DNA of 64,000 nt from Candidatus Eiseniibacteriota bacterium (GTDB lineage: Bacteria > Eisenbacteria > RBG-16-71-46 > SZUA-252). The stretch lies in contig DASXTQ010000042.1 of assembly GCA_036505295.1 (NCBI GenBank), forward strand, positions 6,769 through 70,768, written 5' to 3'. Positions 5,445 to 19,731 of the stretch are shown one piece after another. The position numbers and the translations under genes were made by a program. The notes below the pieces were generated by a model that saw only the letters and a list, made by a program, of their open reading frames with translations, did not search any database and was not told the DNA's origin. Each line of letters opens with the position of its first letter. Position 1 is the stretch's first letter.

Positions 5445-5457
5445 CCGGCGCCCCGGC

Positions 5458-6126: not shown

Positions 6127-7114
6127 CCCGGGCCCTCGGCTCGGGCTCTCGAACCGGCTTCGCCGTCCCGGCCGGTTGGGCGAGGTCCGAGGGTAAACCT
6201 CCCGAGGCGTGCCGGGTCCACCAGTCCTCGACTCGGGGCCCGGCCCAGTAGGCCACGAACGTCAGCATGAATCCAGCGAGGATGTCGACGACCCAATGAT
6301 GGCGTAAGTATACCGTGCCGACGACGAGGCCTGTCGCGAAGGGCAGCTGGACCCAGAAGAACCAGCGCTGGTAACGCCATGCCAGGAGAACCGCGAGGAG
6401 CGCGACCGCGCAATGGAGCGACGGAAAGGCGCCATAAGCGGTCAGCGGGACCACGACCGTGGCGGTCCGCGTGAGATCCAGGAGCGGAGTGCCGTGCAGC
6501 GGAACCGAATAAGCGCCCGGCATGAAGAGCCTCGGCGCGGACGCCGGCCATGCGACGTACCCGATATATCCGAGATACAAGCAGAGAACGAGCGTGACCA
6601 TGGTATAGCGGAAGGCCCGGTGGTCTTTCCTGAGATAGAGGAAAAGTCCGAGCATCGGGCCGAGCACGTAGAAGAGCCAGTAGCATACGGTGAAGAAATC
6701 GGTGAGGAGCGGGCGCGCGAAACGCTCGGCCCATATCGTCGGCTCGAGGCCGAAGAGTGAGAGATCCCATTGGTAGAGCGCGCCCGTGATGTCCGGCGCG
6801 TGGAAAAAGCGGATCAGGTCATGAAGGCTGCCGTAGATGTTCGCGCAAAAGACGAACGGCATCGCGTCCCGGAAAAACGTCCACCGGGGTTTGGCCTTGA
6901 TGAGCCACGCGAAAAGGGCCGTCGACGAAAGGAGCAGGAGAAGGCGCGGAAGCGCGCCGGGATAGGACGCCGCCGGTCCGTCCAGGAGATCGGTCCGGGT
7001 GGCGCTCATGCGCGCGAGCGTGTAGGCCATCGGGAGGAAGAGCAGAAGGGTCGCGCACTCCTCCGGCCTGAGCGCGAACAGCGCGCGACGCCACCCTCTC
7101 CCCGACCCGCTCAC
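6101..7114 (-). CDS. PAP2-family (phosphatidic acid phosphatase type 2-like) integral membrane protein
   Basis: Multiple TM helices and PAP2 motifs (PSLH, YLRHHWVVDILAG). Confidence 0.7.
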   Translation of the reverse strand: MSGSGRGWRRALFALRPEECATLLLFLPMAYTLARMSATRTDLLDGPAASYPGALPRLLLLLSSTALFAWLIKAKPRWTFFRDAMPFVFCANIYGSLHDLIRFFHAPDITGALYQWDLSLFGLEPTIWAERFARPLLTDFFTVCYWLFYVLGPMLGLFLYLRKDHRAFRYTMVTLVLCLYLGYIGYVAWPASAPRLFMPGAYSVPLHGTPLLDLTRTATVVVPLTAYGAFPSLHCAVALLAVLLAWRYQRWFFWVQLPFATGLVVGTVYLRHHWVVDILAGFMLTFVAYWAGPRVEDWWTRHASGGLPSDLAQPAGTAKPVREPEPRARVAAKVMES

Positions 7115-9237
7115 GCGCCGCCGTCCGGGGCCAGCCGCACCCTCGCGTCCAGGACGACGCTCGGAGCGTCCCCCTGGAAAACCGCCACAGGATTCAGGTC
7201 GAGCTCCTGGAGGTTGGCCTGCTCCATCGCCATCCGCGAGACCCGGTGCAGGAGGTCGAGGAGGGCGGGCACGTTCGAGCGGGGCGCGCCCCGGTATCCG
7301 TCGAGGAGCGGGAATCCGCGGATCTCGCGCACCATCTCCTCGGCGTCGCGATCGGTGAGCGGCGCCACGCGCATGGAGACGTCCCGCAGGAGCTCGACGG
7401 CGACCCCGCCCAATCCGAAGAGCAAGACCGGCCCGAAGGAAGGGTCGCGGCTCACCCCGACGATCGCCTCGATGCCCCCTTGGATCATTCGTTCCACGGT
7501 GACCCCTTCGAAGCGGGCATTCGGCTTCTCGCGCGCCAGGGCGGTCCGGACCGCGTCGAAGGCGCGGGCCACTTCCTCCTCGCTTCCAAGACGGAGCCTC
7601 ACGCCGTCGACTTCGGTCTTGTGGACGACATCGGGCGAACGCACCTTGACCACGACCGGAAAGCCAATGCTCTTCGCCACCGAAGCGGCCTCGCCGCGGT
7701 TCCCCGCCGGGCGCGAGCGATTCGTAGGCACTCCGTAGGCGGCGAAAAGCTCGTTCATGCTCTCGGCATCCATCCAGCGCGGCCCGGGCTTGCCGGTCGA
7801 GAGCACCCTCGCGATGATCTCACGCCCACGCTCGGTCTCGATTCCGGGGAGCGCCGGCACCTTTCCCGGACCCTTGCTGCGCCAGACGCCATATCCCACG
7901 GCTCGGGCCAGGGTTTGCGCGGCCGATTCGGGGAAGGCATACGAGGGGATGTGCCCCTCCTGGAGGGAGCGAAGACTCTCGGGAACGCCGTGACTTCCCA
8001 TGAAGCAGGACAGGATCGGCTTCTTGCTCCCGGAGGCGCCCGCGAGAATCGCGCGCGCGACCTCCTCCGCGCCGGTAACGAGCGGCGGCACGAAAATCAC
8101 GATCACCGCGTCGACGTTCTTGTCCAGCGTGAGCATGCGAAGCGCCTTCTCGTAGGACGGCGCGTCGGCGGAAGCGATCATGTCGACAGGATTTTTGAAG
8201 CTGGCTTCCGAGGGCAGGAAGGACTTGAGCCCCTTCACCGTCTTCTGCTCGAGCGACGGGAGGGAAAGCCCCGCCGATTCACACGCGTCCGCGGCCATGA
8301 TGCCGGGACCACCGGCGTTCGTCAGGATCGCCACGTTCCGGCCGAGCGGCACGGGCTGTGACGCGAGGAGCATCGCGGTGTCGAACAGCTCCTCGATGGT
8401 GTTGGTTCGGATCACGCCGCTCTGGCGGAAGAGCGCGTCCACCGCCGCGTCCGAGCCGGCGAGCGCTCCGGTGTGCGAGGAAGCGGCCCGCGAGCCGCCG
8501 GGCGTGCGCCCGCTCTTCACCGCGATGATCGGCTTGGTGCGAGCGACCCGGCGGGCGAGCTGGGTGAACTTGTGCGGATTTCCGAATGACTCGAGGTAGA
8601 GAAGGATCAGATCCGTCCCGGGATCCTTCTCCCAGTACTCGATCAGGTCGTTACCGGAGACCTCGGCCTTGTTTCCCACGCTCACGAATTGCGAGATGCC
8701 GAGGTTGAGCTCGCGGGCGTAGTCGAGGATCGCGAGCCCCAACGCGCCGCTCTGGGATGAGAAGGCGACACGTCCCGCCGGAGGCCGCACGGGCGCGAAC
8801 GTCGCGTTCAGCGAGACCTTCGGATCGGTGTTCACGATCCCGAGGCAGTTCGGGCCGACGAGGCGCATATTGTAGCGGCGCGCGACGTCCAAAAGCGCGC
8901 GCTCGCGCTTCCGCCCCTCGTCCCCGGTTTCCTTGAACCCCGCGGAGATGACGATCAAAGCCTTGACGCCTTTCTCCCCGCAAGACGTCGCCGCCTCGAC
9001 CACGTGCTCGGCCGGGATGACGATGACTCCCAGATCGACCGGCCCTGCGATCGCGTTCACGCTCGGGTAGGCGGCGATCGACTGCACGTGGGTCGCGTTG
9101 GGATTGACCGGGTAGACCGGTCCCTGGAAGCCCTGGTCGATCAGGTTATGAAGGATCGCCCCGCCGATCGAGTCACGGCGGCGGGAGGCTCCGATCACCG
9201 CGACCGACCGGGGTTTCAGTAGCGGTTCCAGCGTCAT
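7111..9237 (-). CDS. Acetyl-CoA synthetase (ADP-forming) / acyl-CoA synthetase (NDP-forming), fused alpha-beta
   Basis: 708 aa. N-terminal CoA-binding domain (VAVIGASRRRDSIGG), succinyl-CoA-synthetase-like ligase domain and C-terminal ATP-grasp domain. 4-bp overlap with the upstream PAP2 gene. Confidence 0.8.
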   Translation of the reverse strand: MTLEPLLKPRSVAVIGASRRRDSIGGAILHNLIDQGFQGPVYPVNPNATHVQSIAAYPSVNAIAGPVDLGVIVIPAEHVVEAATSCGEKGVKALIVISAGFKETGDEGRKRERALLDVARRYNMRLVGPNCLGIVNTDPKVSLNATFAPVRPPAGRVAFSSQSGALGLAILDYARELNLGISQFVSVGNKAEVSGNDLIEYWEKDPGTDLILLYLESFGNPHKFTQLARRVARTKPIIAVKSGRTPGGSRAASSHTGALAGSDAAVDALFRQSGVIRTNTIEELFDTAMLLASQPVPLGRNVAILTNAGGPGIMAADACESAGLSLPSLEQKTVKGLKSFLPSEASFKNPVDMIASADAPSYEKALRMLTLDKNVDAVIVIFVPPLVTGAEEVARAILAGASGSKKPILSCFMGSHGVPESLRSLQEGHIPSYAFPESAAQTLARAVGYGVWRSKGPGKVPALPGIETERGREIIARVLSTGKPGPRWMDAESMNELFAAYGVPTNRSRPAGNRGEAASVAKSIGFPVVVKVRSPDVVHKTEVDGVRLRLGSEEEVARAFDAVRTALAREKPNARFEGVTVERMIQGGIEAIVGVSRDPSFGPVLLFGLGGVAVELLRDVSMRVAPLTDRDAEEMVREIRGFPLLDGYRGAPRSNVPALLDLLHRVSRMAMEQANLQELDLNPVAVFQGDAPSVVLDARVRLAPDGGA

Positions 9238-9240
9238 TCG

Positions 9241-9540
9241 CTACGCCGGCACCCCGGCCTTCTTGCGGATCTCCTCGATGCGACGGGCCAGTTCCACATC
9301 CTTGTCGGTGATCCCTCCCTGATCGTGCGTCACGAGGGCGAGCGTGATGTTGGAGTATCGTATGTCGATGTCCGGGTGGTGGTTCGCCAGCTCCGCCAGA
9401 TGCGCCACCGCGTTCACGAACACGATGGCTTCGGGGAAGGAGTCGTGCTTGAACGTCTTCGTGATCGCGCCGTCCTTCACCGTCCAGCCCGGAAGATCAC
9501 GGAGCGCTCGATCCAGCTCGGCCTGGGGCAGCTTGGGCAT
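9241..9540 (-). CDS. phhB: 4a-hydroxytetrahydrobiopterin dehydratase (pterin-4-alpha-carbinolamine dehydratase)
   Basis: Start MPKLPQAEL preceded by AGGAGG. PCD signature ...ELANHHPDIDIRYSNITL. Confidence 0.8.
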   Translation of the reverse strand: MPKLPQAELDRALRDLPGWTVKDGAITKTFKHDSFPEAIVFVNAVAHLAELANHHPDIDIRYSNITLALVTHDQGGITDKDVELARRIEEIRKKAGVPA

Positions 9541-9548
9541 GGTCCCTC

Positions 9549-9836
9549 CTACCAGCGACCCAGGAGACCGGGGTCGGGCATCATTTCCGGGGTCCACTGC
9601 TCGGCCAGGATCTCCACATCCGAGGCCTTCCCCGTCACGGTGCTGACGACTTCCTTCACTTGCTGGATGATCTGGGGAGCGTAGGGGCAGAACGGCGTCG
9701 TCAGCAACATGCGAACCACGAGCGGCTCGGCCGTCTGGTCGATCTCCCGCACCAGCCCCAGCTCGATGATGCTCAGGTTGATCTCTGGATCCATAACCTG
9801 CTCCAAGGCAGTCTTGATTTCCTCTTCGGTCGCCAT
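9549..9836 (-). CDS. sufT: DUF59/MIP18-family Fe-S cluster assembly protein (SufT-like)
   Basis: 95 aa. Conserved TTPFCPYAPQI motif of DUF59/SufT family. Confidence 0.75.
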   Translation of the reverse strand: MATEEEIKTALEQVMDPEINLSIIELGLVREIDQTAEPLVVRMLLTTPFCPYAPQIIQQVKEVVSTVTGKASDVEILAEQWTPEMMPDPGLLGRW

Positions 9837-9871
9837 CAGTTCCTCGCCGGTTGCGGGCCCTCCGGCCCTGG

Positions 9872-10195
9872 CTAGTCCGGAAGCCCGATGAAGAGCTCGT
9901 TTCCTTCCACGCGCACCGGATAGGACTCGACCGGCGTGACCGCGGGAAGCGTGAGCGCGTCTCCCGTCTTGATATTGAATCGCGCGCCGTGACGGGGGCA
10001 GATCACCTGGTCCTCCTCGATCTCTCCCTCTGCGAGAGGCCCGCCGTCGTGCGTGCAGATGTCCTCGATGGCGTAAAAGCCATCCTCGAGCCGGAAGACG
10101 GCGATCTTCCGGTCCTCGACGTCGAAGACCTCCGCGCGCCCGCCGGGTATGTCGCTCGCCTTTCCCACGCGCACGTAACGCGCCGTCCCGGTCAT
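9872..10195 (-). CDS. Rieske [2Fe-2S] domain protein (non-haem iron-sulfur ferredoxin-like)
   Basis: CTHDGGPL...CPRHGARF Rieske ligand boxes. Start taken at MTGTARYVRV, immediately after the sufU stop. Confidence 0.8.
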   Translation of the reverse strand: MTGTARYVRVGKASDIPGGRAEVFDVEDRKIAVFRLEDGFYAIEDICTHDGGPLAEGEIEEDQVICPRHGARFNIKTGDALTLPAVTPVESYPVRVEGNELFIGLPD

Positions 10196-10197
10196 CC

Positions 10198-10596
10198 CTA
10201 GTCTTCCTCGCCGGGCCAATTCTGCTGTACGCCGTAGACGCCCACCTTGAGCGTCTTCAGCGCGAGGAGTGCGCATTTGAGCCGGACGGGACCCAACTCG
10301 ATTCCAAGCATATCTAAAACGTCGTCCCGATTGATCAGTTTTACCTCGTCGAGCGTTTTTCCCTCGATCGCCTCCGTCAGCATGGAAGCGGCCGCGCGGC
10401 TGATCGAGCAGCCTTTGCCGCTGAACCGGACCGCATCGACCTTGTCGTCCTTGATCTTGAGATCGATCCGGATCTCGTCACCGCAGAGGGGATTTGCATC
10501 CTGGGCGGTGATATCCGGCTTCTCGAGGGTGCCCCAATTGCGTGGATTCTGGTAATGGTCGAGGATGGTCTCTCGGTAAAAGTCGTCGAGGCTCAT
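10198..10596 (-). CDS. sufU: SUF-system Fe-S cluster scaffold SufU (NifU/IscU-like)
   Basis: NPLCGDE...GCSIS...LKCALLAL conserved Cys ligands. Confidence 0.85.
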   Translation of the reverse strand: MSLDDFYRETILDHYQNPRNWGTLEKPDITAQDANPLCGDEIRIDLKIKDDKVDAVRFSGKGCSISRAAASMLTEAIEGKTLDEVKLINRDDVLDMLGIELGPVRLKCALLALKTLKVGVYGVQQNWPGEED

Positions 10597-11840
10597 CGGT
10601 GAAAGACTTGCTTCGCCTTCCGGACCCCTTCCACCAGGACCTCGATGTCGCAGGGCAGATTGTACACGTAGAAGCTGGCCCTCGTCGTCGCCGCCACACC
10701 GAGCTTCGCGTGGAGCGGCATGGCGCAGTGATGTCCGGCGCGCACGGCGACCCCCTCGTGATCCAGGACGGTCGCCACGTCGTGCGCGTGGATGTCGTCC
10801 AGAGTGAACGCGACGATGCCCCCTCGCTCAGCGGCGGGGGGGCCATAGATCGTCACGCCCGGAATCTCCCCCAGGGCCCGCATCGTCTCCGTGACCAGCC
10901 CGCGCGAGTGTTCCGCGATCGCGTCGAATCCGATCTTCTCGATGTAATCGATCGCGGTCCCGAACGCAATCGTGTCCGCGATGTTCATCGTGCCGGCCTC
11001 GAACTTCCAGGGGACCTCGTTCCACGTGGATCCCTCGAGCTTCACCTCGCGGATCATCTCACCGCCGCCCAGGAAGGGAGGCATGGATTCCAAATGTTCG
11101 CGCTTGCCGTAGAGCGCGCCGGTCCCGGTGGGGCCGAGCATCTTGTGCGCGGAGAACGCGAGAAAGTCGCAATCGAGCTGTCGCACGTCCACGCCGAGGT
11201 GCGGGAGGCTCTGGGCCGCGTCCACGAACACGAGCGCGCCTCGGGCGTGCGCCCTTCGGGCGATCTCGGCGACCGGGTTCACCGTGCCGAGCACGTTGGA
11301 CATGTGGGTGAGGGAGACGATCTTGACCGGGCCCTCGAGCAGCCGGTCGAGCCCGCTCAGGTCCAGCTTCCCCCTGGCATCGAATGGGATGTACCGAATC
11401 GCCGCGCCGCGCTCCTGGGCGAGCATCTGCCACGGAACAAGATTCGAGTGATGCTCCATCTCGGTGAGCACGATGACGTCGCCCGGGCCCACGTTCTTCC
11501 GGCCCCATGCGTTTGAGACCAGATTCACCGATTCCGTGGTGCCGCGGGTAAAGACGATCTCGTGCGAGGAGCGCGCATGAAGGATTCGCGCCACCTTCTC
11601 GCGGACCTCTTCGTATCGCGCGGTGGCCTCCTCGGCGATCGCGTAGACGCCCCGATGGATGTTGGCGTTATAGGTGCGGTAATAGTGCGCCAGGGCTTCG
11701 ATCACGGCGACAGGCTTTTGGGTCGTCGCCGTGCTGTCGAGGTAGATCAGCGGCTTCCCGTGAGCCTTCTGCTGGAAGATCGGGAAGTCGTTGCGGATCG
11801 CGGCGAAGTCCACGCGCCGCTCGGGGGCCAAGACCCTCAC
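10593..11840 (-). CDS. sufS: Cysteine desulfurase SufS (class V aminotransferase)
   Basis: 415 aa. PLP-dependent cysteine desulfurase family with SufS-type motifs (SAHKMLGPTG; C-terminal HHCAMP). Confidence 0.9.
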   Translation of the reverse strand: MRVLAPERRVDFAAIRNDFPIFQQKAHGKPLIYLDSTATTQKPVAVIEALAHYYRTYNANIHRGVYAIAEEATARYEEVREKVARILHARSSHEIVFTRGTTESVNLVSNAWGRKNVGPGDVIVLTEMEHHSNLVPWQMLAQERGAAIRYIPFDARGKLDLSGLDRLLEGPVKIVSLTHMSNVLGTVNPVAEIARRAHARGALVFVDAAQSLPHLGVDVRQLDCDFLAFSAHKMLGPTGTGALYGKREHLESMPPFLGGGEMIREVKLEGSTWNEVPWKFEAGTMNIADTIAFGTAIDYIEKIGFDAIAEHSRGLVTETMRALGEIPGVTIYGPPAAERGGIVAFTLDDIHAHDVATVLDHEGVAVRAGHHCAMPLHAKLGVAATTRASFYVYNLPCDIEVLVEGVRKAKQVFHR

Positions 11841-11841
11841 G

Positions 11842-13233
11842 TCACGCCGCGGCCTTCCGCTCCACGGCGGCGGTCACGGTCGTGCGGAGCGATTCGGCCG
11901 GAATCCTCTCGAGCACAGGTTCGAAGAACCCCTGGATGATCATCCGTTCCGCCTCCGGCCGCGGGAGGCCCCTCGACCTCAGATAGAAGAGCTGGTCCTC
12001 GTCGACCTGGCCGACGGTGGCCCCGTGCGTACATCGAACGTCGTTTGCCTCGATTTCCAGGCTCGGGATCGAGTCCGCACGCGCTCTCTCGGAGAGAAGG
12101 AGATTCCGGTTCGCCTGGTAGGCGTCCGAGCGCTGGGCATCCTTGTGCACCTTGATCAGGCCCTGGTAGACCATCCGCGCGCGGTCGCGAAGCGCGCCCT
12201 TGAACAGGAGGTCGCTGACCGAGTGACCGACGTTGTGGTTCTGGAAGGTGTGGAAATCGAAGTGCTGCGTCCCATTCCCGAAGTAGCAGCCGGAGAACTT
12301 GGCCTCGGTCCCCTCGCCGTCGAGGTGCATCTCCAGATCCAGCTTGGTGAGCTTTCCGCCCAGCGCGGTGTAGGTCCAATGGAACCGCGCGTCGCGCGCG
12401 ATCCGTACGCGCTCCGTGCCGAAGTGATGGATGTTGCCACCCCAGCGCTGGAAGGTGGCGAGATGGAGGCTCGCGGATTGCCCCACCGTGACCTCGGTCG
12501 CGCCGACGTTCACGCCCGCCCCCGGCTCGCCGTGCGAGACGTACTCCTCGATGACCGCCGCTTCGGACCCGTTCCCCATTGCGATGACCACGTGCGGGAA
12601 CGTCCCGAGCTCGGGCGTCTCGCGGGTGAAGAGAAGCTGGATCGGACGCGGAACCTTGACCCCATCCGGCACGTAAAGAAACGCTCCGCCGCTCTCCAGA
12701 GCGGCCGCGAGCCCCGTGAAGCGGTTCTCGTCGAAGCGGACCGTCCGTCCGAGGAAGCGCTCCACGAGCGCGGGGTGCGCGCGCGCGGCATCCCGGATCG
12801 GCATCAGGACGACGCCGAGCTTCGCAAGCTCCGGCTCCCGGTCGATCAGAATCGCATTCGAGTCGAGCTGGACGAGGAGCGCCGAGCGCTCCTCCGGCGG
12901 CCCGATCTCGGCGCGGACCGCCGCGGGAAGCGCGCTCGTAGAAGCGACGGCGGGGTGCGGCTCCCGCACCGCGAGGATCGACTCCCATTTGAAGGAGCTG
13001 ATGTCGGTCCGCCGCCACAGCTCTTCGGTGCGTGCGGGAAACGGCGTCTTCTCGCAGTACGCCCACGCCGCCGCACGGCGCCGCGCCAGAAATTCAGGCT
13101 CCTCGGCCCGCTTCGAGAGCGAGGCGATCTCGCCTGGGTTCAAAGCGCCGACGCGAACCGAGTCGAGCGTCCGCGGAGGCGCCAGGGTGTCGGATGGATT
13201 CACGCTTGATTCTCCATGGGTTCGGGCTGCCAT
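11842..13233 (-). CDS. sufD: Fe-S cluster assembly protein SufD
   Basis: 463 aa SufB/SufD-fold protein located between sufB and sufS. Confidence 0.8.
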   Translation of the reverse strand: MAARTHGESSVNPSDTLAPPRTLDSVRVGALNPGEIASLSKRAEEPEFLARRRAAAWAYCEKTPFPARTEELWRRTDISSFKWESILAVREPHPAVASTSALPAAVRAEIGPPEERSALLVQLDSNAILIDREPELAKLGVVLMPIRDAARAHPALVERFLGRTVRFDENRFTGLAAALESGGAFLYVPDGVKVPRPIQLLFTRETPELGTFPHVVIAMGNGSEAAVIEEYVSHGEPGAGVNVGATEVTVGQSASLHLATFQRWGGNIHHFGTERVRIARDARFHWTYTALGGKLTKLDLEMHLDGEGTEAKFSGCYFGNGTQHFDFHTFQNHNVGHSVSDLLFKGALRDRARMVYQGLIKVHKDAQRSDAYQANRNLLLSERARADSIPSLEIEANDVRCTHGATVGQVDEDQLFYLRSRGLPRPEAERMIIQGFFEPVLERIPAESLRTTVTAAVERKAAA

Positions 13234-13246
13234 TGAACGGGAGCGG

Positions 13247-14662
13247 TCAGCCGACCGATCCCTCCATTTGGAGTTGGATGAGACGGTTCATCTCGACCGC
13301 GTACTCCATGGGCAGCTCCTTCGTGATCGGTTCGATGAACCCGTTCACGATCATGGCGGATGCTTCCGCCTCCGGGATGCCGCGGCTCATGAGGTAAAAG
13401 ATCTGCTCGTCGCCGATCTTCGAGACCGTCGCCTCGTGTCCGATCGTGACCTGATCCTCCTCGATTTCCATGTACGGATAGGTGTCCGACCGGGAATGCT
13501 CGTCCAGAAGGAGCGCGTCGCAGCGAACGGTGGACTTGCTGCCCTTGGCCCCCTTCGCGACCTTGATGAGCCCGCGGTAGCCCGCGCGGCCGCCGTCCTT
13601 GCTGATCGACTTGGACACGACGCTCGAGGTGGTGTTCGGCGCGGCGTGGACCGCCTTGCCGCCGGCGTCCTGGTGCTGGCCCTTGCCGGCGAACGCGATC
13701 GAAAGGATCTCCGCGTGCGCGCCCGGCTCCATAAGGTAGACGCTCGGATATTTCATCGTGAGCTTGGACCCGAGGTTCGCGTCCACCCACTCCATCCGTG
13801 CGTTGCCGTAGGCCATGGCACGCTTGGTGACCAGGTTGTACACGTTGTTCGACCAGTTCTGGATCGTGGTGTAGCGGCAGTAGGCGCCGCGCTTCACGAT
13901 GATCTCGACCACAGCCGAGTGAAGCGAATCGCTCGCGTAGGTCGGAGCCGTGCAGCCCTCGACGTAATGCACCGAGGCGCCCTCGTCCACGATGATGAGG
14001 GTCCGCTCGAACTGACCCATGTCCTTCGCGTTGATCCGGAAGTACGCCTGAAGCGGGAGATCCACCTTCACGCCCTTCGGCACATAGATGAACGAGCCGC
14101 CGCTCCACACCGCGCTGTTCAGCGCGGCGAACTTATTGTCCGAAGGCGGAATGACCGTCCCGAAGTATTCCCGGAAAAGCTCCGGGTGCTCCTTCAGCGC
14201 GGTGCCCGTGTCGAGGAAGATGACGCCCTTCTCCGATAGGCTCGCCTTGATCTTGTGGTAGACCGTCTCGGAGTCGTACTGGGCGCCCACGCCGGAGAGA
14301 AACTTCTGCTCCGCCTCGGGAATGCCCAGACGATCGAAGGTCTTCTTGATGTCGGCCGGGACCTCGTCCCAGGTCTTGCTCTGCTCCTCGGCCGGCTTCA
14401 GGTAGTAATAGATGTTCTGGAAGTCGATCTCCTCGACCTTGCCCCCCCAGCGGGGCAGAGGCTTCTTCTCGAACTGCTCGAGCGCCTTCAGACGAAACTC
14501 CTTCATCCAGGCGGGCTCGTTCTTGATGTCGGAGATCTGCGAGACGACTTCCTTGTCGAGTCCGCGGCGCGTCTTGAAGACGGACTTCTCCTCGTCGTGG
14601 AAGCCGTACTTTTCCTTGTATCCTTCTCGGATATCCAGCGTCGGCTGCTGTGTCGTTGTCAT
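13247..14662 (-). CDS. sufB: Fe-S cluster assembly protein SufB
   Basis: 471 aa. Strongly conserved SufB sequence throughout. Confidence 0.9.
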
Positions 14663-14680
14663 GGTTGCCTCCCGGCCGCC

Positions 14681-15451
14681 CTAAGCGGCCTGGTCCTCGC
14701 GGATCCAGTCATATCCCTGCTTCTCGAGCTCGAGCGCAAGGTCGGCCCCGCCGGACTTGACGATCCGCCCGTCCACGAGCACGTGGACGAAGTGCGGCTT
14801 AATGTAGTTCAAGATCCTCTGGTAGTGCGTGATCAAGAGCACGCCCAGGTCCGGTCCCGTCAGCGCGTTCACGCCTTCGGAGACGATCCTGAGCGCGTCG
14901 ATGTCGAGTCCCGAATCGGTCTCGTCCAGAATCGCGATCTCGGGCCTTAGCACGGCCATCTGCAAGATTTCCGCGCGCTTCTTCTCACCGCCCGAGAAAC
15001 CGTCGTTCAGGTAACGGCCCGCGAACGACTCGTCCATCCTGAGTAGAGCCATCTTCTCCTTGACGAGCGTCCGGAATTCCTTGGGCGGGATCGGCTTCTC
15101 CTCGCCCAGCTCCTTCCGCCGCACGTTCAGCGCGTTCCGGAGGAAATTCGCGACGCTCACGCCCGGGATGGCCGTCGGGTACTGGAACGCGAGGAAGATG
15201 CCCTTCCGCGCGCGCTCGTCCGGGGAAAGCTCGAGGACGTCCTCGCCCTTGTAGAGGATCGTTCCGTCCGTCACCTCATATTTGGGATTCCCCATCAGCG
15301 CGTTCGCGAGCGTGCTCTTGCCCGATCCGTTCGGTCCCATCAGGGCGTGGATCTCACCCTTGTTCACGGCCAAGGAAAGGCCCTTCAATATGGGCTTCCC
15401 GTCGATCGAGATGTGCAGATTTCGAATCTCCAGCGTCGGTGTAGCGCTCAT
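14681..15451 (-). CDS. sufC: Fe-S cluster assembly ATPase SufC
   Basis: Start at [12 protein letters not shown] with AAGGAGA RBS. ABC ATPase with Walker [10 protein letters not shown] and ABC signature. Confidence 0.9.
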
Positions 15452-15474
15452 GTTCTCCTTCCGTGTGTTCTGGC

Positions 15475-15867
15475 CTAAAGTGTGAAGCTGTCCCCGCATC
15501 CGCACGTCTTCTTGACGCGCGGGTTCTTGAACTGGATCCCGGTCCCTAAGAGCCCGCGTTGGTAGTCGATCTCCGTCCCCGCGAGAACATCCAGCGAGCG
15601 CGGATCCACATAAACGGTCAAGTCCTCGTATTCGAGCACGGTGTCGCTGCCGCGACGTTCCGTCGTGAAACCAAGAAAGTAGCTGTACCCAGAGCAACCC
15701 CCCGCCTTGACCCCGATGCGAAGCGCCTGCCCTTCCTTGCCTTCGTTCCCGCGGATACGCTTCACGTAGTCCACGGCGGCAGGCGTGAGGGAGATGGAGC
15801 TCGTCCCCTGGGGTTCGCGGGTCTCGGTCTCCGTCGTGCGAATGTCGTTTGTTGGCTCTTCGCTCAT
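15475..15867 (-). CDS. sufA: A-type Fe-S carrier (HesB/IscA/SufA family)
   Basis: Conserved C-x(n)-CGCG ligand pattern (GGCSGYSY ... KTCGCGDSF). Confidence 0.85.
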
Positions 15868-16397
15868 GGGTTCTCCGGCGCGATGTGGAGCACGATCCTA
15901 TCGGATCGGCCCGGGTCGGTGTGGAAGCCCGCGACGAGCGCCGGCTCCTCCTTCATGCCATGATCCTCGGGGCAATGCGGGCAGTCCTGCTGCGTCGTTC
16001 GCGGCGGCCGGCATGCTTGGCAGGTACGCAGATACTCGAGCGTTCCTTCCAGCTCGCGCGCGAGCGTCTCGTACCGGATGATCGCCTGGCGCGTCTCCGT
16101 GAGCTTCTCCTGGAACGTTTCGCGCACGACGGCCATCGCCTCGGGGCCGTACCGGCTCCCGTGCCAGGCCTTGAGCAGGCCTTGAATCTGATGGAGCGAA
16201 AGCCCCGTTTCTTGGAGGAGCTCGATCCACCGGATTCGCGTGATGGCGGACTCGTCGTAGAGCCGAAATCCCCCGTTGCTGCGCGCAACCGGATGGAGCA
16301 GGTCGAGCTCCTCGTAGAGCCTGAGCGCCCGGACCGACTTGCCGGTCTGCCTTGCCAAGTCGCCAACCTTGAGGTGTTTTGAAACGACCGCTGCCAT
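15864..16397 (-). CDS. MerR-family transcriptional regulator with C-terminal Cys-rich cluster (C-x2-C-x10-C-x-H-C)
   Basis: N-terminal MerR HTH ([26 protein letters not shown]). Start at M7 (MAAVVSK) with GGGAGGG RBS. The first in-frame ATG at 16415 lies upstream of the predicted transcription start. Confidence 0.75.
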
Positions 16398-16419
16398 ACG
16401 ATCCCTCCCGTACATCTAC

Positions 16420-16450
16420 ATCTTACCCTTACGCGAAGGTTAGAGTCTAA
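16420..16450 (-). promoter_or_regulatory. MerR-type sigma70 promoter: -35 TTAGAC, 19-bp spacer carrying dyad CCTTCGCGTAAGG, -10 TAAGAT
   Basis: Read on minus strand. The 19-bp spacer is the hallmark of MerR-regulated promoters. Positioned about 7 nt before the merR RBS. Confidence 0.55.
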
Positions 16451-16666
16451 CTAAAATTTCGGCCGGGGAGCCTCGGGTGTTGAGCTGATTCAAAGGTTGG
16501 CGAGTGTCTGGGATAACTTGTTTATACGTATTAAGTTAGATGTTTCATTCCCGCATTCGGTTCATGCCGCTGGCCGCGACGGATGCCAACACAACCGGGG
16601 GTCACCGCAGTAGGCTCGGTGGTGTATATTGATGTGAGCCGGAGTCCATCCTTTCTGGAGGTTTTC

Positions 16667-17044
16667 ATGAAGCTGATCCAGGGCGCGCTGCTAGCCATCT
16701 TGATCCTCGTGCTCGGTGTTACAGCACTTTCTTGCAAGAAGAAGTCGAACCCCGTGGCACCCGGCGGTGGGGCCGACGTGACGATCGACATCGTCGCGGA
16801 CATGAACGCCGGGGCGTTCGGCGGCAAGCGTACCGTCGCCGTGGGCAAGACAGTTGCCTGGCGGAACACCCGCGGCACGACGCATACGTCCACCTCTGAA
16901 GGTGGCCCAGCAGGCGGCCAGTGGGACACCCAAGGGATCAGCCCAAGCGCCACGAGCGCGCCCATCCAAATGAACACGGTCGGAACGTACCCGTACGAGT
17001 GCACCATCCACCCGAGCATGAAAGACACGCTCGTGGTCCAGTAG
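16667..17044 (+). CDS. Cupredoxin-fold (plastocyanin/azurin-like) blue-copper lipoprotein
   Basis: GGAGG RBS. Lipoprotein signal (LGVTALSCKKK). C-terminal copper-ligand motif YPYECTIHPSMKD (Cys-x2-His-x2-Met) with upstream His. Confidence 0.7.
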   Translation: MKLIQGALLAILILVLGVTALSCKKKSNPVAPGGGADVTIDIVADMNAGAFGGKRTVAVGKTVAWRNTRGTTHTSTSEGGPAGGQWDTQGISPSATSAPIQMNTVGTYPYECTIHPSMKDTLVVQ

Positions 17045-17045
17045 G

Positions 17046-18527
17046 CTAGCGCGACCGGCCGGGTTTTCGTTTTGGTCGATGTGGCCGAGGGCCCGCGGAG
17101 CGGGGCCCGGTCTCGACAGTCGTCCAGCGCAGGAAGGGCAGGAGCCGGTGCACGCCGCCATGCGTCCCCACCAGGGATGGACTTTGGAGGGCTCCCAGGG
17201 GCGCGATGCGCGGAACCCCCATCGCCGCCAGGGCGGCGGCTAGGGCAGTCCTCTCCCGGCCCTTTGCCTCGAGCCCGATCGCCTCGATGAAGCGCGCGGC
17301 CGGCGCAAGCGCCGCCTCGACCTCCTCCACCCCGTCCACGGCATGGACGCGCACCGTGCGATACGAGGGGGTGGGCTCGAAGCGCGCGCCGTCCTCGTAG
17401 ACCAGCGTCCAGTCGGTCCCCTCGCTCGAGGCTAGAACCTGCGTGCCTCGACTTCCCGTCGCCTCCTCGAAATGCGCCTGCGCACGATAGAGCTGCACGC
17501 GCGCGGCTTGGCTCGCTTCGGGCTCGCTTCGGGGCAGTCCGTCGCGGAGCGACTCGAGCGCCCCGCCCAGAGCCGACGCGAACGCCGCGGGCCCGACGTC
17601 CCCACCGCGCTCGACGTAGAACGCGTGCGGCGAGAGGCAGCCCTGCTGATCGTAGAGCGCGACGTCGAACGCGGCCCGCGCGGCGAGGCTCCCCAGACCC
17701 GCGCGCGTGAGCGACGCACTGGAGATGTACGCGACGCTGACCTTCGAGCCGTGGATCACGACCTTGGCGTCCGGGCGCGTCTCCCGGGCGATGCTCATCG
17801 TCGAGTTCTCTCCTCCGAACGCGAGCACCGCGGGCGCACGCCGGACAGCCGCGCGATCGAGCTCGATGGTTCCCCCCTTCCACCACGCGACGACAATGCA
17901 GGCGCCGAGGTCTTCGTCCTCCTCGGCGATCGTCCTCGCGAGGAGCGGTGCTATGACCGGCTCCTGCGAGGAGGCCTTCGCGAAGAGCGCCGACTTCATG
18001 GCGAGCGCCGAGTAGAAGGGCCAAACCGGGAGTCCGGGCACGTTCCCCGCGTAGATCTGGAGCATCCACTCGGGACCACACGCCTGGCGCGGGATCCCTT
18101 TCCGATCGGGCGTGGGGCGGTCGAGCGCGGCCGCCGATCCCAACTCCGAGGCGACCCAGCGCGACACGCCGCCCGCCGCAAGGGGACCGAAGGTGTCCGT
18201 GAGCGCCCGCTCGATCATCGGGGTCGAGAAACGCCCGGAGCGCGCGAGCCACGCGATGGCGTTCCGGCGCACGGGACTCTGCGGGTCCAGGAACCGCTGC
18301 GCGACGCGCTCGAGCACGCGATGGATCTCGGCCGCGGGCCGGCGCGCAAGACGCTCCGCGCGCGCCGAGCGGATCGCCTCGACCCAGGTCTCGATCGAGG
18401 CCGGGGTGACGGTCGCGAGCCGCAGCTCGATCGCGTCGTGGGGCGGGCCGAACCGTTGGACGCTCGTCTCGGCGTCCCGCTCCACCTCGGGCGGAAGATA
18501 GAAAGCGTCGAAGAGCCCCTGCGTCAT
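17046..18527 (-). CDS. LuxC-like long-chain acyl-CoA reductase (aldehyde-forming)
   Basis: About 494 aa from MTQGLFDAFYLPPE. Resembles the LuxC acyl-CoA reductase family along its length. Start overlaps the upstream LuxE-like stop by 4 bp. Confidence 0.6.
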   Translation of the reverse strand: MTQGLFDAFYLPPEVERDAETSVQRFGPPHDAIELRLATVTPASIETWVEAIRSARAERLARRPAAEIHRVLERVAQRFLDPQSPVRRNAIAWLARSGRFSTPMIERALTDTFGPLAAGGVSRWVASELGSAAALDRPTPDRKGIPRQACGPEWMLQIYAGNVPGLPVWPFYSALAMKSALFAKASSQEPVIAPLLARTIAEEDEDLGACIVVAWWKGGTIELDRAAVRRAPAVLAFGGENSTMSIARETRPDAKVVIHGSKVSVAYISSASLTRAGLGSLAARAAFDVALYDQQGCLSPHAFYVERGGDVGPAAFASALGGALESLRDGLPRSEPEASQAARVQLYRAQAHFEEATGSRGTQVLASSEGTDWTLVYEDGARFEPTPSYRTVRVHAVDGVEEVEAALAPAARFIEAIGLEAKGRERTALAAALAAMGVPRIAPLGALQSPSLVGTHGGVHRLLPFLRWTTVETGPRSAGPRPHRPKRKPGRSR

Positions 18528-19702
18528 CGCGGCACGCCCGGCGCGCGCTCCGCTCGCGCCCCGCGTTCCCGCTCGAGAAATTGCTCGAACGGGAGCGAGC
18601 ACCCGCGCCGCTCCGCCTCGGGGAGGCGACCCTCGAGCGTGAGCCTGTTGCCCGCGGCGGCGCCGACATCCTCGGTCTGAATCGCGAGCGGCACGTCGAG
18701 ATTCGCGAGGTCGTAGTGGACCAGGAGCCCGGGCCTTCCTTCGGGCAGATCGAGCATCGTCTCCGGATCGAGCACGCGGGTGCGCACCCACGGAGGGATC
18801 ACGAACCCGCGCCTCGCCGGGCGCCGCTCGTGCGCGGCCAGGAGCGTGTCTTCATAGAACTGGCTTCCCATTTCCGCCATTCCGTATTCGTTCACAAGGT
18901 GCGTTCGCGGAATCCCGAACACGCGGTGAATGGAAGCGGCCATGTCGTCAGGGCGAAGCTCGACCCGCGTTCCCTTCGCCCCTCCGGTATCCATCGCCCG
19001 GCTTCCTGGGGGGAGCGCGAAACAGAGCCCCCTCCGATCGCACCGCTCGACATAGGCGCGGAGGAGAAGCGTGGTGCCGAGGAGGAGGACCGGCACCCTC
19101 CCGTCGAGGGAACGCGCGAGCTCCGCGTCGGCACGCTCCCATCGTGGTTCTCCGTGTTCGACGATCCATGAGGGGGCGTCACAGAGCCGGGCAGCGACAC
19201 GGTCGGCCATGAACCAGAGCGAGGAGCGCGGCGATTCGGCGCGCGTGGGCCCGAAGATGATCATCTTGAGCCGCGCACCGTCCGGCAGGAGGTGCCGGGT
19301 GAAGCTCTTGAGAAGCGACGTCTCGTAGAGATGGGTCGACGTGAGATGCACACGGCCCGGCCTCGTGATCGTCGTCCCGCTCGTCTCGAACGTGACGGTG
19401 GGGGATGCCGGCGCCGCGCCTCCACTCGTCCCCCCGTCCCCAACCCGCGCCGCGCTCAGACCGTGCTCTTTGAACGCCGAAGAGGGCACCGGCGGAATCT
19501 CGCGCCAATCACCCAACCCGCCGGGCCCGCGCCCGACATGCCGCGCGTACGCCCCGTACTCCGGTATCGTATCGCACTGGATGCGGAAGGACCGAATCGC
19601 GAGGTCCGAGAAGGCAGCCTCCGCCCCGCGCGCTTGCGCCGCCGGCTCCTCCCACCCCGCCGCCGAGATGAAGCGGGCGAGATCCGCCTCCATCTCGCGC
19701 AT
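18524..19702 (-). CDS. LuxE-like acyl-protein synthetase / PaaK-like adenylate-forming enzyme
   Basis: About 392 aa from MREMEADLARF. Adenylate-forming motif ETSGTTITRPG. Genomic pairing with the LuxC-like gene. Confidence 0.55.
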   Translation of the reverse strand: MREMEADLARFISAAGWEEPAAQARGAEAAFSDLAIRSFRIQCDTIPEYGAYARHVGRGPGGLGDWREIPPVPSSAFKEHGLSAARVGDGGTSGGAAPASPTVTFETSGTTITRPGRVHLTSTHLYETSLLKSFTRHLLPDGARLKMIIFGPTRAESPRSSLWFMADRVAARLCDAPSWIVEHGEPRWERADAELARSLDGRVPVLLLGTTLLLRAYVERCDRRGLCFALPPGSRAMDTGGAKGTRVELRPDDMAASIHRVFGIPRTHLVNEYGMAEMGSQFYEDTLLAAHERRPARRGFVIPPWVRTRVLDPETMLDLPEGRPGLLVHYDLANLDVPLAIQTEDVGAAAGNRLTLEGRLPEAERRGCSLPFEQFLERERGARAERAPGVPR

Positions 19703-19731
19703 CGGGCCGGTACCTGGGATGTCGCTGGCGG

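What the first reader, a model, noticed from the sequence alone, without database searches (positions are those of the whole stretch)
9241..16397. Extended SUF supercluster including SufA, SufU, a Rieske protein, SufT and a pterin dehydratase
The gene order merR-sufA-sufC-sufB-sufD-sufS-sufU-Rieske-sufT(DUF59)-phhB is tightly packed, with 4-bp overlaps or short gaps, on one strand. Having both an A-type carrier and a U-type scaffold plus a Rieske ferredoxin in one operon is uncommon. The trailing 4a-hydroxytetrahydrobiopterin dehydratase (PCD) has no obvious Fe-S role. It may be a moonlighting or DCoH-like partner.
Basis: partly seen in the sequence, partly recalled or inferred. Interest (0 to 1): 0.5.

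Follow-up and report, generated by a model that had tools for sequence, protein, structure and literature searches.

The report
Eisenbacterial SUF operon with MerR regulator
This is the iron-sulfur-cluster assembly (SUF) operon of an uncultured soil bacterium (Candidatus Eisenbacteria). Its extra Rieske and pterin-dehydratase genes are lineage-specific add-ons, and its first gene belongs to an apparently undescribed family of cysteine-rich MerR regulators that also heads ISC iron-sulfur operons in another phylum.

Summary
Window 9241-16397 (minus strand) encodes merR-sufA-sufC-sufB-sufD-sufS-sufU-Rieske-sufT-PCD, with junctions from a 4-nt overlap to a 35-nt gap. The source is Candidatus Eisenbacteria. 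All 27 related genome loci that reach the region keep the order.

The co-directional run continues into an ADP-forming acyl-CoA synthetase, a PAP2 phosphatase and signal peptidase. The upstream LuxE/LuxC and cupredoxin-like genes are equally syntenic. Conserved adjacency alone therefore says little.

Rieske ferredoxins in suf clusters are already documented. PCD keeps its full catalytic motif and always sits 3-39 nt after sufT. A deeper Eisenbacteria clade has the same operon but ends at sufT. PCD is best read as a clade-specific, co-transcribed enzyme, not a shown Fe-S factor.

The MerR protein has an invariant C-terminal CxxC-x9-10-CxxC motif. It is followed by sufA or sufC in all 71 metagenome loci with enough downstream DNA. 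At 43-52% identity (two loci are named Polyangiaceae) it heads iscS-iscU-iscA-hscB-hscA-fdx in 9 of 9 loci. A conserved dyad, ACyCTnACG-N4-CGTAAGGGT, lies upstream of merR. I propose a MerR-type Fe-S homeostasis sensor. The cofactor and the sign of regulation are untested.

The parts
16420..16450 (-). Conserved promoter/operator block upstream of merR. It reads TAGACT (-35-like, 16449-16444), then an 18-nt spacer holding the imperfect dyad ACTCTAACC-TTCG-CGTAAGGGT (16446-16425), then TAAGAT (-10-like, 16425-16420).
   Evidence: Sequence. The same block is seen in 12 loci. ACGTAAGGGT with at most 1 mismatch lies upstream of merR in 82 of 101 merR loci. The 9-mer CGTAAGGGT occurs essentially once per locus, and in the loci checked it lies just upstream of merR. 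The promoter hexamers are consensus readings, not evidence of function.
15864..16397 (-). MerR-family regulator, 177 aa, with C-terminal C126-x2-C129-x9-C139-x2-C142. [quoted passage not shown]
   Evidence: Pfam MerR_1, MerR and MerR-DNA-bind. All named NCBIfam equivalogs (CueR, ZntR, SoxR, MerR) score below cutoff. The four Cys and P152 are invariant in 26 and in 55 homologs. AF2 places C126 at the end of the long dimerisation helix. Start 16397 follows a GGAGGG RBS and agrees with the JGI call.
15475..15867 (-). A-type Fe-S carrier (SufA/IscA/ErpA family), 130 aa
   Evidence: PF01521. TIGR00049 scores 110.7 bits against a cutoff of 58.8. The SufA, IscA and ErpA equivalogs score below cutoff. 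The C-terminal CGCG motif is present.
14681..15451 (-). SufC ATPase, 256 aa
   Evidence: TIGR01978 scores 363 bits against a cutoff of 212.8.
13247..14662 (-). SufB scaffold, 471 aa
   Evidence: TIGR01980 scores 734 bits against a cutoff of 346.
11842..13233 (-). SufD, 463 aa (the JGI call uses a later start, 453 aa)
   Evidence: TIGR01981 scores 287.8 bits against a cutoff of 222. Gene call.
10593..11840 (-). SufS, SufS-family (group II) cysteine desulfurase, 415 aa
   Evidence: TIGR01979 scores 585.8 bits against a cutoff of 475.
10198..10596 (-). SufU sulfur-transfer protein, short form, 132 aa
   Evidence: TIGR01994 scores 114 bits against a cutoff of 92.5. The best solved relatives are B. 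subtilis Zn-SufU 1xjs and 5xt5. It has 'RLKC' rather than the IscU 'HC' and lacks the Firmicute insertion.
9872..10195 (-). Soluble Rieske [2Fe-2S] ferredoxin, 107 aa (C-T-H ... C-P-R-H)
   Evidence: PF00355, PF13806 and PF22543. The closest solved relatives are dioxygenase ferredoxins TodB, CarAc and BphF. It is present between sufU and sufT in both Eisenbacteria clades.
9549..9836 (-). DUF59 protein (SufT-like), 95 aa, with the TTPFCP cysteine
   Evidence: PF01883. TIGR02945 scores 58 bits, below the cutoff of 143.
9241..9540 (-). Pterin-4a-carbinolamine dehydratase (PCD), 99 aa, the last gene of the suf transcription unit in this clade
   Evidence: PF01329. NF002017 scores 114.5 bits against a cutoff of 80. 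The catalytic motif is complete and largely invariant. It matches solved PCDs. The gap from sufT is 3-39 nt in 27 loci.
7111..9237 (-). ADP-forming acyl-CoA synthetase, 708 aa. It is the adjacent downstream gene and probably a separate or separable unit.
   Evidence: Pfam CoA_binding, Succ_CoA_lig and ATP-grasp_5. The PCD-to-ACD gap ranges from -4 to 216 nt. In L082 an opposite-strand HNH-like ORF of 430 aa separates the two genes.

Best explanation
The region is the SUF iron-sulfur cluster biogenesis operon of a Candidatus Eisenbacteria (Eiseniibacteriota) bacterium. It is probably transcribed as one unit from a promoter upstream of merR.

**Core steps (inferred from membership in well-characterised families).**
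- SufS removes sulfur from cysteine and passes it to SufU.
- SufB, SufC and SufD form the ATP-dependent scaffold.
- The Rieske ferredoxin probably supplies electrons.
- The A-type carrier and the DUF59/SufT protein deliver or mature clusters.

**Control (inferred from comparative evidence).** The first gene encodes a MerR-family regulator. Its canonical sensor position, the loop after the dimerisation helix, carries an invariant Cys4 site. The regulator most likely binds the conserved dyad ACyCTnACG-N4-CGTAAGGGT at its own promoter. It would tune operon expression to Fe-S or redox status. My preferred reading is that it holds an Fe-S cluster supplied by the machinery it controls, as IscR, SufR and RisR do.

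**PCD.** The terminal gene encodes a catalytically intact pterin-recycling or pterin-repair enzyme. One Eisenbacteria clade appended it to the operon. It is co-expressed with SUF but is not shown to take part in Fe-S assembly.
For: **Gene identities and packing.**

**Source organism.** (names given by sources).

**Operon conservation.** All 27 Eisenbacteria-like genome loci keep the order wherever the contig reaches it, and 11 of them carry the full run from merR to PCD. Median gaps are -4 to 25 nt for most junctions (sufA to sufC about 65 nt). merR overlaps sufA by 4 nt in 10 of 11 loci.

**Regulator.**
- The four Cys are invariant in 26 sequences at 30-61% identity and in 55 sequences.
- 86 of the 150 best 50%-identity cluster representatives carry CxxC-x6-14-CxxC.
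- merR is followed directly by sufA (70 loci) or sufC (1 locus) in all 71 metagenome loci with enough downstream DNA.
- Homologs at 43-52% identity, two named Polyangiaceae, head iscS-iscU-iscA-hscB-hscA-fdx in 8 loci. A ninth locus is truncated after a cysteine-desulfurase-type gene.
- The operator motif lies upstream of merR in 82 of 101 loci, in both SUF and ISC contexts.
- AF2 puts C126 at the end of helix 84-126, where MerR-family sensor loops sit.

**PCD.**
- The gap from sufT is always 3-39 nt.
- PCD stays with sufT when an HNH-like gene is inserted between PCD and ACD in L082.
- It is absent after sufT in the deeper clade: L108 is followed by convergent OMP and GT2 genes, and L116 by DUF218.
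Against: - There are no transcript data. Promoter and terminator scans were uninformative, so co-transcription is inferred from spacing alone.
- The nature of the Cys4 site is unknown. Two CxxC pairs about 10 residues apart are also typical of structural Zn sites. AF2 confidence there is only 66-75.
- The operator position differs between lineages. In the window's clade it lies between -35-like and -10-like hexamers with an 18-nt spacer. In the deeper clade and the ISC loci it lies downstream of, or overlapping, a TTGACn-17-TAnnTT promoter. The sign of regulation therefore cannot be called.
- In some loci the right half-site doubles as a possible Shine-Dalgarno sequence.
- The regulator's divergent neighbour in this clade is a cupredoxin-like gene, so a copper link is not excluded.
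- For PCD, conserved tight linkage in more than 30 loci could still reflect a real functional tie that I cannot see.
Confidence: 0.65

Rival explanations
1. PCD is a true SUF accessory factor. It would be a moonlighting or DCoH-like protein partner of a Suf protein, or an enzyme that links Fe-S supply to a pterin or molybdopterin cofactor pathway.
For: - PCD lies immediately after sufT (3-39 nt) in all 27 genome loci, 4 metagenome loci and the window.
- It stays linked to sufT when ACD is displaced by an inserted gene.
- COG2154 proteins in organisms without aromatic amino-acid hydroxylases have been assigned 'a role in Moco metabolism' (PMC3223725). Moco synthesis needs Fe-S enzymes; that last point is from my own knowledge.
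Against: - PCD is absent from the otherwise identical operon of the deeper Eisenbacteria clade.
- None of 12 distant PCD loci is in a suf operon. In L030, opposite-strand ORFs separate PCD from sufCB.
- The catalytic residues are fully conserved, which points to ordinary enzymology.
- The unrelated neighbours LuxC, ACD and PAP2 are just as syntenic.
- No paper links PCD to suf.
Confidence: 0.15
2. The MerR protein is an ordinary CueR-like copper or heavy-metal sensor. It would control the divergent cupredoxin-like gene, and its position before suf would be incidental.
For: - The best NCBIfam hit is CueR, and several sources annotate homologs as 'copper efflux regulator'.
- A cupredoxin-like lipoprotein gene lies divergently upstream in the window and throughout the window's clade.
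Against: - The CueR score is 61 bits against a cutoff of 147. No known metal-site pattern is matched.
- The gene overlaps sufA by 4 nt.
- It is followed by sufA or sufC in 71 of 71 informative loci and by iscS in 9 of 9 loci at 43-52% identity, where tblastn finds no homolog of the cupredoxin-like gene.
- The deeper Eisenbacteria clade also shows no homolog of the cupredoxin-like gene upstream.
Confidence: 0.08
3. The Cys4 site is a structural or thiol-redox Zn(Cys)4 site. The regulator would then sense oxidants through thiol oxidation, or sense nothing through this site, rather than holding an Fe-S cluster.
For: - Two CxxC knuckles separated by about 10 residues are a common zinc-binding arrangement (my own knowledge).
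- There is a weak zf-CXXC-like Pfam hit in one homolog, E = 0.099.
- The loop is modelled without regular secondary structure.
Against: - The exclusive association with both unrelated Fe-S assembly systems, SUF and ISC, is most simply explained by sensing their product.
- NreB binds an Fe-S cluster through four Cys of its PAS domain (PMC4601167). From memory its spacing is CxxC-x11-CxxC, so the motif is compatible with a cluster.
Confidence: 0.25
4. The conserved dyad is an RNA leader element, a hairpin that sequesters the ribosome-binding site, and not a protein operator.
For: - In the deeper clade and in the ISC loci the motif lies downstream of a strong sigma-70-like promoter and 5-30 nt before the start codon.
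- AAGGG could serve as a Shine-Dalgarno sequence.
Against: - The right half-site CGTAAGGGT is nearly invariant, while the left half varies without compensating changes.
- In the window's clade the motif lies about 25-35 nt upstream of a separate GGAGG ribosome-binding site and is flanked by promoter-like hexamers.
- The 9-4-9 dyad geometry resembles the 7-4-7 mer operator (my own knowledge).
Confidence: 0.07

Closest known systems
SufU-type SUF operons: Bacillus subtilis sufCDSUB, Mycobacterium sufRBDCSUT and Myxococcus xanthus risR-sufBCDSUT (the last in PMC9973013)
   Same: [quoted passage not shown]
   Different: Here the order is sufC-sufB-sufD. An A-type carrier precedes the scaffold genes and a Rieske ferredoxin sits between sufU and sufT. 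The regulator is MerR-type rather than Rrf2 (RisR) or SufR. A PCD gene is appended.
Streptomyces suf cluster with the Rieske-type ferredoxin SpFdx4 (PMC12979805), and Rieske-SufT fusion proteins (PMC4982691)
   Same: A small dioxygenase-type Rieske [2Fe-2S] ferredoxin is encoded inside a suf cluster and co-regulated with it. The Rieske and DUF59 modules are adjacent or fused.
   Different: The lineage, the gene position and the regulator (SufR) all differ. I could not compare the sequence directly with SpFdx4.
IscR, RisR (Rrf2 family) and SufR, the Fe-S-cluster-containing regulators encoded as the first gene of isc or suf operons
   Same: The regulator holds the same genomic position, as first gene of an ISC or SUF operon. 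It has a conserved Cys ligand set and a palindromic site at its own promoter. The proposed feedback logic is the same.
   Different: The fold is unrelated: MerR winged-HTH plus coiled coil. The Cys pattern is different. Cluster binding has not been shown.
SoxR, the only well-known MerR-family regulator with an Fe-S cluster
   Same: It shares the MerR architecture, with the sensor site in the loop directly after the dimerisation helix and four Cys ligands.
   Different: The SoxR motif is CX2CXCX5C (my own knowledge), whereas here it is CX2CX9-10CX2C. The SoxR equivalog scores 38.9 bits against a cutoff of 116.9. SoxR controls soxS or efflux genes, not Fe-S assembly operons.
Bacterial pterin-4a-carbinolamine dehydratase (PhhB/COG2154)
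   Same: The Pfam and NCBIfam matches are above cutoff. The catalytic motif is complete. It resembles solved PCDs 3jst, 1uso and 2ebb.
   Different: It is not next to a phenylalanine hydroxylase or to Moco genes. It is the last gene of a suf operon. No such context was found in the literature searched.

Membership tests
SUF Fe-S assembly system (SufBC2D + SufS/SufU) | SufB, SufC and SufD homologs encoded together | tested here: met
   TIGR01980, TIGR01978 and TIGR01981 all score above their curated cutoffs.
SUF Fe-S assembly system (SufBC2D + SufS/SufU) | A SufS-family (group II) cysteine desulfurase with a dedicated sulfur acceptor, SufE or SufU | tested here: met
   SufS: TIGR01979 scores 585.8 against 475. 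SufU: TIGR01994 scores 114 against 92.5. Cys38, Asp40, Cys63 and Cys108 are present, with Lys rather than His before the last Cys. The best PDB match is Zn-SufU. No SufE is present in the cluster.
SUF Fe-S assembly system (SufBC2D + SufS/SufU) | Biochemical cluster assembly activity | not testable with these tools
   This needs an experiment.
SufA (proteobacterial equivalog) / A-type carrier | A-type carrier fold with three conserved Cys (C ... CGC) | tested here: met
   PF01521 hits, and TIGR00049 scores 110.7 against 58.8. The CGCG motif is at the C-terminus. The SufA, IscA and ErpA equivalog models score below cutoff, so only family-level membership is shown.
SufT (DUF59 Fe-S maturation factor) | A DUF59 domain with the conserved reactive Cys, encoded with sufBC | tested here: met
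   PF01883 scores 58.5 against 23.5. The TTPFCP cysteine is present. The gene lies in the suf cluster.
SufT (DUF59 Fe-S maturation factor) | A match to the curated SUF-associated equivalog TIGR02945 | tested here: not met
   58 bits against a cutoff of 143.4.
Rieske-type [2Fe-2S] ferredoxin | A Rieske fold with CxH ... CxxH ligands in a small soluble protein | tested here: met
   PF00355, PF13806 and PF22543 hit. CTH and CPRH are present. The protein is 107 aa, and the nearest solved proteins are TodB, CarAc and BphF.
Pterin-4a-carbinolamine dehydratase (PCD/DCoH, COG2154) | Family profile match above the curated cutoff | tested here: met
   PF01329 scores 105.9 against 26. NF002017 scores 114.5 against 80.
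Pterin-4a-carbinolamine dehydratase (PCD/DCoH, COG2154) | Catalytic motif [EDKH]-x3-H-[HN]-[PCS]-x5,6-[YWF]-x9-[HW]-x8,15-D (motif recalled from Naponelli et al. 2008, which could not be read here) | tested here: met
   The window has E50-LAN-H54-H55-P56-DIDIR-Y62-x9-H72-x8-D81. E50, H54, H55, P56, H72 and D81 are invariant in 18 homologs, and Y62 is nearly invariant.
Pterin-4a-carbinolamine dehydratase (PCD/DCoH, COG2154) | Dehydratase activity, and a pterin-dependent partner enzyme in the genome | not testable with these tools
   No whole Eisenbacteria genome could be scanned. Nothing pterin-related was seen among the window genes I annotated.
MerR family of transcriptional regulators | An N-terminal winged HTH plus a long antiparallel coiled-coil dimerisation helix | tested here: met
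   Pfam MerR_1, MerR and MerR-DNA-bind hit. The AF2 model has helix 84-126. The top Foldseek hits are BmrR, MtaN, CadR, SoxR and CueR.
MerR family of transcriptional regulators | A dyad operator inside an over-long (19-20 bp) -35/-10 spacer | tested here: inconclusive
   In the window's clade a 9-4-9 dyad lies between TrGACy and TAnGAT with an 18-nt spacer. In the deeper clade and the ISC loci the dyad lies downstream of, or overlapping, a 17-nt-spacer promoter. These are consensus readings only.
SoxR ([2Fe-2S] MerR regulator) | CX2CXCX5C cluster-binding motif, and the equivalog score | tested here: not met
   The motif here is CX2C-x9-CX2C. TIGR01950 scores 38.9 against 116.9.
CueR/ZntR/MerR metal sensors | Equivalog score and the characteristic metal-ligand Cys pattern | tested here: not met
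   CueR scores 61 against 147, ZntR 47 against 168, and MerR 44.5 against 151.
IscR/RisR (Rrf2) and SufR Fe-S biogenesis regulators | An Rrf2 or SufR-type DNA-binding domain | tested here: not met
   Only MerR-family domains were found. The resemblance is in genomic position and proposed logic, not in ancestry.

The most novel reading that the evidence does not exclude
The Cys4 MerR proteins are a previously undescribed class of Fe-S-cluster-sensing (or Fe-S-status-sensing) transcription factors. On this reading the class took over the role of IscR, SufR or RisR independently. It would autoregulate the SUF operon in Eiseniibacteriota and the ISC operon in Polyangia-type Myxococcota through a shared dyad operator. 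A secondary and much less likely novelty is that PCD is a real SUF accessory enzyme in one Eisenbacteria clade.
Probability: 0.4. Interest if true: 0.7.

Novelty: new variant of a known kind. Interest (0 to 1): 0.5.

Why it matters
Control of Fe-S cluster biogenesis is understood through a handful of regulators (IscR, SufR, RisR, Fur, OxyR). These were studied in a few model bacteria.

A MerR-type regulator with an invariant Cys4 site is found at the head of two evolutionarily unrelated assembly systems in two phyla. If confirmed, it would add a new sensor architecture and, after SoxR, another example of a MerR protein using an Fe-S cluster. It would also give a directly testable system: the operator sequence, the ligand residues and culturable Polyangia hosts are all in hand.

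The operon composition documents how accessory electron carriers (the Rieske ferredoxin) and unrelated enzymes (PCD) are recruited to suf operons in a poorly known soil phylum. By itself, the extended gene list is an ordinary lineage-specific variation.

Tried and rejected
1. **Promoter and terminator scans** of 5000-18000 gave no promoter hits, and terminator-like sites were at chance level. They were of no use for operon boundaries.
2. **Rfam and tRNA scans** of the window found nothing.
3. **L030 (Longimicrobiales).** PCD lies 8 kb from sufCB there. I rejected this as linkage because long opposite-strand ORFs lie between them. This rests on the ORF list only.
4. **PCD family review.** The Naponelli 2008 paper (PMC2287330) is not held. 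I relied on a secondary citation and on memory for the motif.
5. **Metagenome scan with A3.** A closer 8-sequence alignment, A4, worked.
6. **A Pfam domain for the Cys4 tail.** None exists in the library. There were only sub-threshold zf-CXXC noise hits.
7. **Foldseek of the AF2 model against PDB.** It gave only generic MerR-family hits and no specific relative for the sensor loop.
8. **CueR-like copper sensor and RNA-hairpin readings** of the regulator and the dyad. I considered both and down-weighted them; see the rival explanations.
9. **Aromatic amino-acid hydroxylase or Moco genes in Eisenbacteria.** I could not test for them.
10. **Rarity of SufA plus SufU.** I did not survey how rare it is to find both in one operon.

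Full report
**1. Observation**

- a MerR-family regulator (15864-16397)
- an A-type carrier (15475-15867)
- SufC (14681-15451)
- SufB (13247-14662)
- SufD (11842-13233)
- SufS (10593-11840)
- SufU (10198-10596)
- a 107-aa Rieske ferredoxin (9872-10195)
- a DUF59/SufT protein (9549-9836)
- a 99-aa pterin-4a-carbinolamine dehydratase, PCD (9241-9540)

The ORFs are and the sequence. Pfam supports all ten. [quoted passage not shown] Junctions run from a 4-nt overlap to a 35-nt gap. JGI gene calls on a near-identical 87-kb contig give the same genes.

An ADP-forming acyl-CoA synthetase (ACD) starts 3 nt after the PCD stop. A PAP2 phosphatase, signal peptidase and an FG-GAP protein follow on the same strand.

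**2. Source and conservation**

PCD is 100% identical to proteins that sources name Candidatus Eisenbacteria.

A scan of one genome per species with a PCD alignment returned 39 loci. I compared them with the window proteins by tblastn.
- All 27 Eisenbacteria-like loci (PCD 65-99% identical, SufD down to about 62%) keep merR-sufA-sufCBD-sufS-sufU-Rieske-sufT-PCD-ACD-PAP2 as far as each contig reaches.
- The 12 more distant PCDs (34-51%) are not in suf operons. In L030, PCD is 8 kb from sufCB with opposite-strand ORFs between them.

Spacing:

| Junction | Number of loci | Gap |
|---|---|---|
| sufT to PCD | 27 | 3-39 nt, median 9 |
| PCD to ACD | 26 | -4 to 216 nt |
| merR to sufA | 11 | 4-nt overlap in 10 |

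In locus L082 a 430-aa opposite-strand ORF sits between PCD and ACD, while PCD stays 8 nt from sufT. The ORF carries an HNH-like signature and has lower GC3 than its neighbours. PCD is therefore the terminal gene of the suf unit, and ACD is separable.

The upstream LuxE/LuxC pair and a divergent cupredoxin-like gene are just as syntenic across this clade. Collinearity alone is thus weak evidence for function.

**3. A deeper clade lacks PCD**

A metagenome scan anchored on the regulator (analysed) found a second group. Its MerR is 50-57% identical and its SufD about 45%. A member of its SufB 90%-identity cluster is named Candidatus Eiseniibacteriota.

Three of its loci reach the 3' end: L107, L108 and L116. 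They have merR-(sufA)-sufC-sufB-sufD-sufS-sufU-Rieske-sufT but no PCD and no ACD.
- L108 continues with convergent outer-membrane and glycosyltransferase genes.
- L116 continues with DUF218.

The Rieske gene is therefore an old, conserved member of the operon in this phylum. PCD was appended in one clade.

**4. What the accessory genes are**

*Rieske.* The protein has the CTH and CPRH ligands. It is closest to the dioxygenase ferredoxins TodB, CarAc and BphF. Rieske ferredoxins in suf clusters are documented: SpFdx4 of Streptomyces peucetius is encoded in the suf cluster and de-repressed with it in a sufR mutant (PMC12979805). SufT proteins fused to Rieske or U-type domains have also been catalogued (PMC4982691). 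By analogy with Fdx in ISC, an electron-donor role is the likeliest. This is inference.

*SufU.* It is the short form. Its best solved relatives are B. subtilis Zn-SufU. It has Lys-Cys instead of the His-Cys of IscU, and it lacks the Firmicute insertion.

*PCD.* It has the complete catalytic motif, and the motif's key residues are invariant in 18 homologs. It resembles solved PCDs. No paper in the library links PCD with suf. COG2154 proteins have been assigned a role in Moco metabolism (PMC3223725). I found no pterin-related gene among the window genes I annotated, and I could not scan a whole Eisenbacteria genome.

The best reading is a catalytically ordinary PCD co-transcribed with SUF in one clade. 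A direct Fe-S role is possible but unsupported (about 0.15).

**5. The regulator**

The MerR protein matches only generic MerR models. CueR, ZntR, MerR and SoxR equivalogs are all far below cutoff.

Its C-terminus reads C126-QA-C129-x9-C139-PH-C142, followed by DHGM..PALVAGF.
- These four Cys and P152 are invariant in 12 orthologs, in 26 family members at 30-61% identity and in 55 members.
- An exhaustive HMMER search found 544 cluster representatives at E <= 1e-10. Of the best 150, 86 carry CxxC-x6-14-CxxC.
- No Pfam model covers the region.
- AF2 (mean pLDDT 83.5) places C126 at the end of the long helix 84-126. That is the position of the sensor loop in MerR-family proteins. The loop itself is modelled at pLDDT 66-75.
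- Foldseek finds only generic MerR structures.

**6. Genomic association of the regulator**

In all 71 metagenome loci with enough downstream DNA, merR is followed directly by sufA (70) or sufC (1).

A profile search gave 2252 family members. Some at 47-48% identity are named Polyangiaceae. I looked up nine of these more distant members (43-52% identical by tblastn).
- In eight, merR is the first gene of merR-iscS-iscU-iscA-hscB-hscA-fdx. Frataxin often lies just upstream.
- The ninth contig ends inside a cysteine-desulfurase-type gene.

The same regulator family thus heads the two evolutionarily unrelated Fe-S assembly systems, in the slot that IscR, SufR or RisR occupy elsewhere (PMC9973013). 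Four literature searches found no description of a MerR-type regulator of isc or suf. The library covers open-access papers only.

**7. Operator**

Upstream of merR lies a conserved imperfect dyad, ACyCTnACG-N4-CGTAAGGGT.
- ACGTAAGGGT with at most 1 mismatch is present upstream of merR in 82 of 101 loci, in both SUF and ISC contexts.
- The 9-mer CGTAAGGGT occurs essentially once per locus, and in the loci checked it lies just upstream of merR.
- In the window it is at 16425-16446, between TAGACT and TAAGAT with an 18-nt spacer. That layout resembles a MerR-type promoter.
- In the deeper Eisenbacteria clade and in the ISC loci, a strong TTGACn-17-TAnnTT promoter lies upstream. The dyad there overlaps the -10 region or the early transcript. 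That is a repressor-like position.
- The right half is almost invariant and the left half varies without compensation. This argues for a protein site rather than an RNA hairpin.

The sign of regulation cannot be decided from sequence.

**8. Mechanism proposed**

*Shown:*
- gene content, order and spacing;
- conservation across relatives;
- the invariant Cys4;
- the exclusive association of the regulator with suf or isc operons;
- the conserved dyad.

*Inferred:*
- a single transcript from merR to PCD;
- autoregulation through the dyad;
- the Cys4 site as the sensor.

My preferred model is an Fe-S cluster on the Cys4 site, delivered by the machinery under control, giving feedback (about 0.4-0.45). 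NreB shows that four Cys can hold an Fe-S cluster (PMC4601167); its CxxC-x11-CxxC spacing is from memory. The alternatives are a Zn(Cys)4 thiol switch or structural site (about 0.25) and a CueR-like metal sensor tied to the divergent cupredoxin-like gene (under 0.1).

**9. Verdict**

- The Rieske gene is a conserved but already known type of suf accessory gene.
- PCD is a clade-specific terminal gene with no evidence of moonlighting.
- The extended gene list is a lineage-specific variant of a known system.
- The element worth following up is the Cys4 MerR regulator family.

Noticed in passing
L120-L128 (e.g. L121:10001-15662, Polyangiaceae GCA_046351475.1): Homologs of the window's Cys4 MerR (43-52% identity) are the first gene of merR-iscS-iscU-iscA-hscB-hscA-fdx operons. 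Frataxin (CyaY) and DUF525 genes lie just upstream in four of the loci (L120-L122; frataxin at the edge of L126).
   Followed up: yes
window 16583-17044 (+): A 153-aa lipoprotein-like ORF ends in a type-1-copper-like motif (Y-x-C-x2-H-x2-M) and has no Pfam hit. It is transcribed divergently from merR. It is conserved (32-71% identity) upstream of merR throughout the window's Eisenbacteria clade, but not in the deeper clade or the ISC loci. It could share the merR operator.
   Followed up: partly
window 17046-20152 (-): A LuxC-like acyl-CoA reductase and a LuxE-like acyl-protein synthetase lie upstream of the suf region. LuxC is syntenic with it in about 30 related loci (41-96% identity).
   Followed up: partly
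L082:10227-11519 (-): A 430-aa ORF with an HNH-endonuclease-like signature and lower GC3 (0.75 against 0.83-0.88 in its neighbours) is inserted between PCD and the acyl-CoA synthetase in one groundwater Eisenbacteria contig. It has no Pfam hit.
   Followed up: partly
window 44000-50500: A lower-GC segment (0.54-0.60 against about 0.65 elsewhere) encodes two large regulators. One is a 734-aa TPR-sigma54 activator (44964-47168, +). The other is a 1168-aa Ser/Thr kinase-AAA-TPR protein (47792-51298, -).
   Followed up: partly
window 11833-11842 (-), 27647-27656 (+), 47937-47946 (-): Three further one-mismatch matches to the operator half-site ACGTAAGGGT. That makes 4 in the window against 1.1 expected. 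One lies at the sufD/sufS junction. I did not examine them as possible regulon sites.
   Followed up: no
L006, L008, L017, L021, L022, L023, L026: These contigs carry the Eisenbacteria-type cluster at 65-82% PCD identity. Their MAGs are labelled Binatia, Dormiibacterota, Omnitrophota, Acidobacteriota, Limnocylindrales, Bacteroidota or Hyphomicrobiales. The likely cause is mis-binned contigs or mislabelled MAGs.
   Followed up: no
window 7111-9237 (-) and 6101-7114 (-): The ADP-forming acyl-CoA synthetase and the PAP2 phosphatase overlap by 4 nt under my gene model. The JGI call starts PAP2 later, leaving an 80-nt gap. They follow PCD in every locus of the window's clade. The reason for this conserved pairing is unknown.
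   Followed up: no
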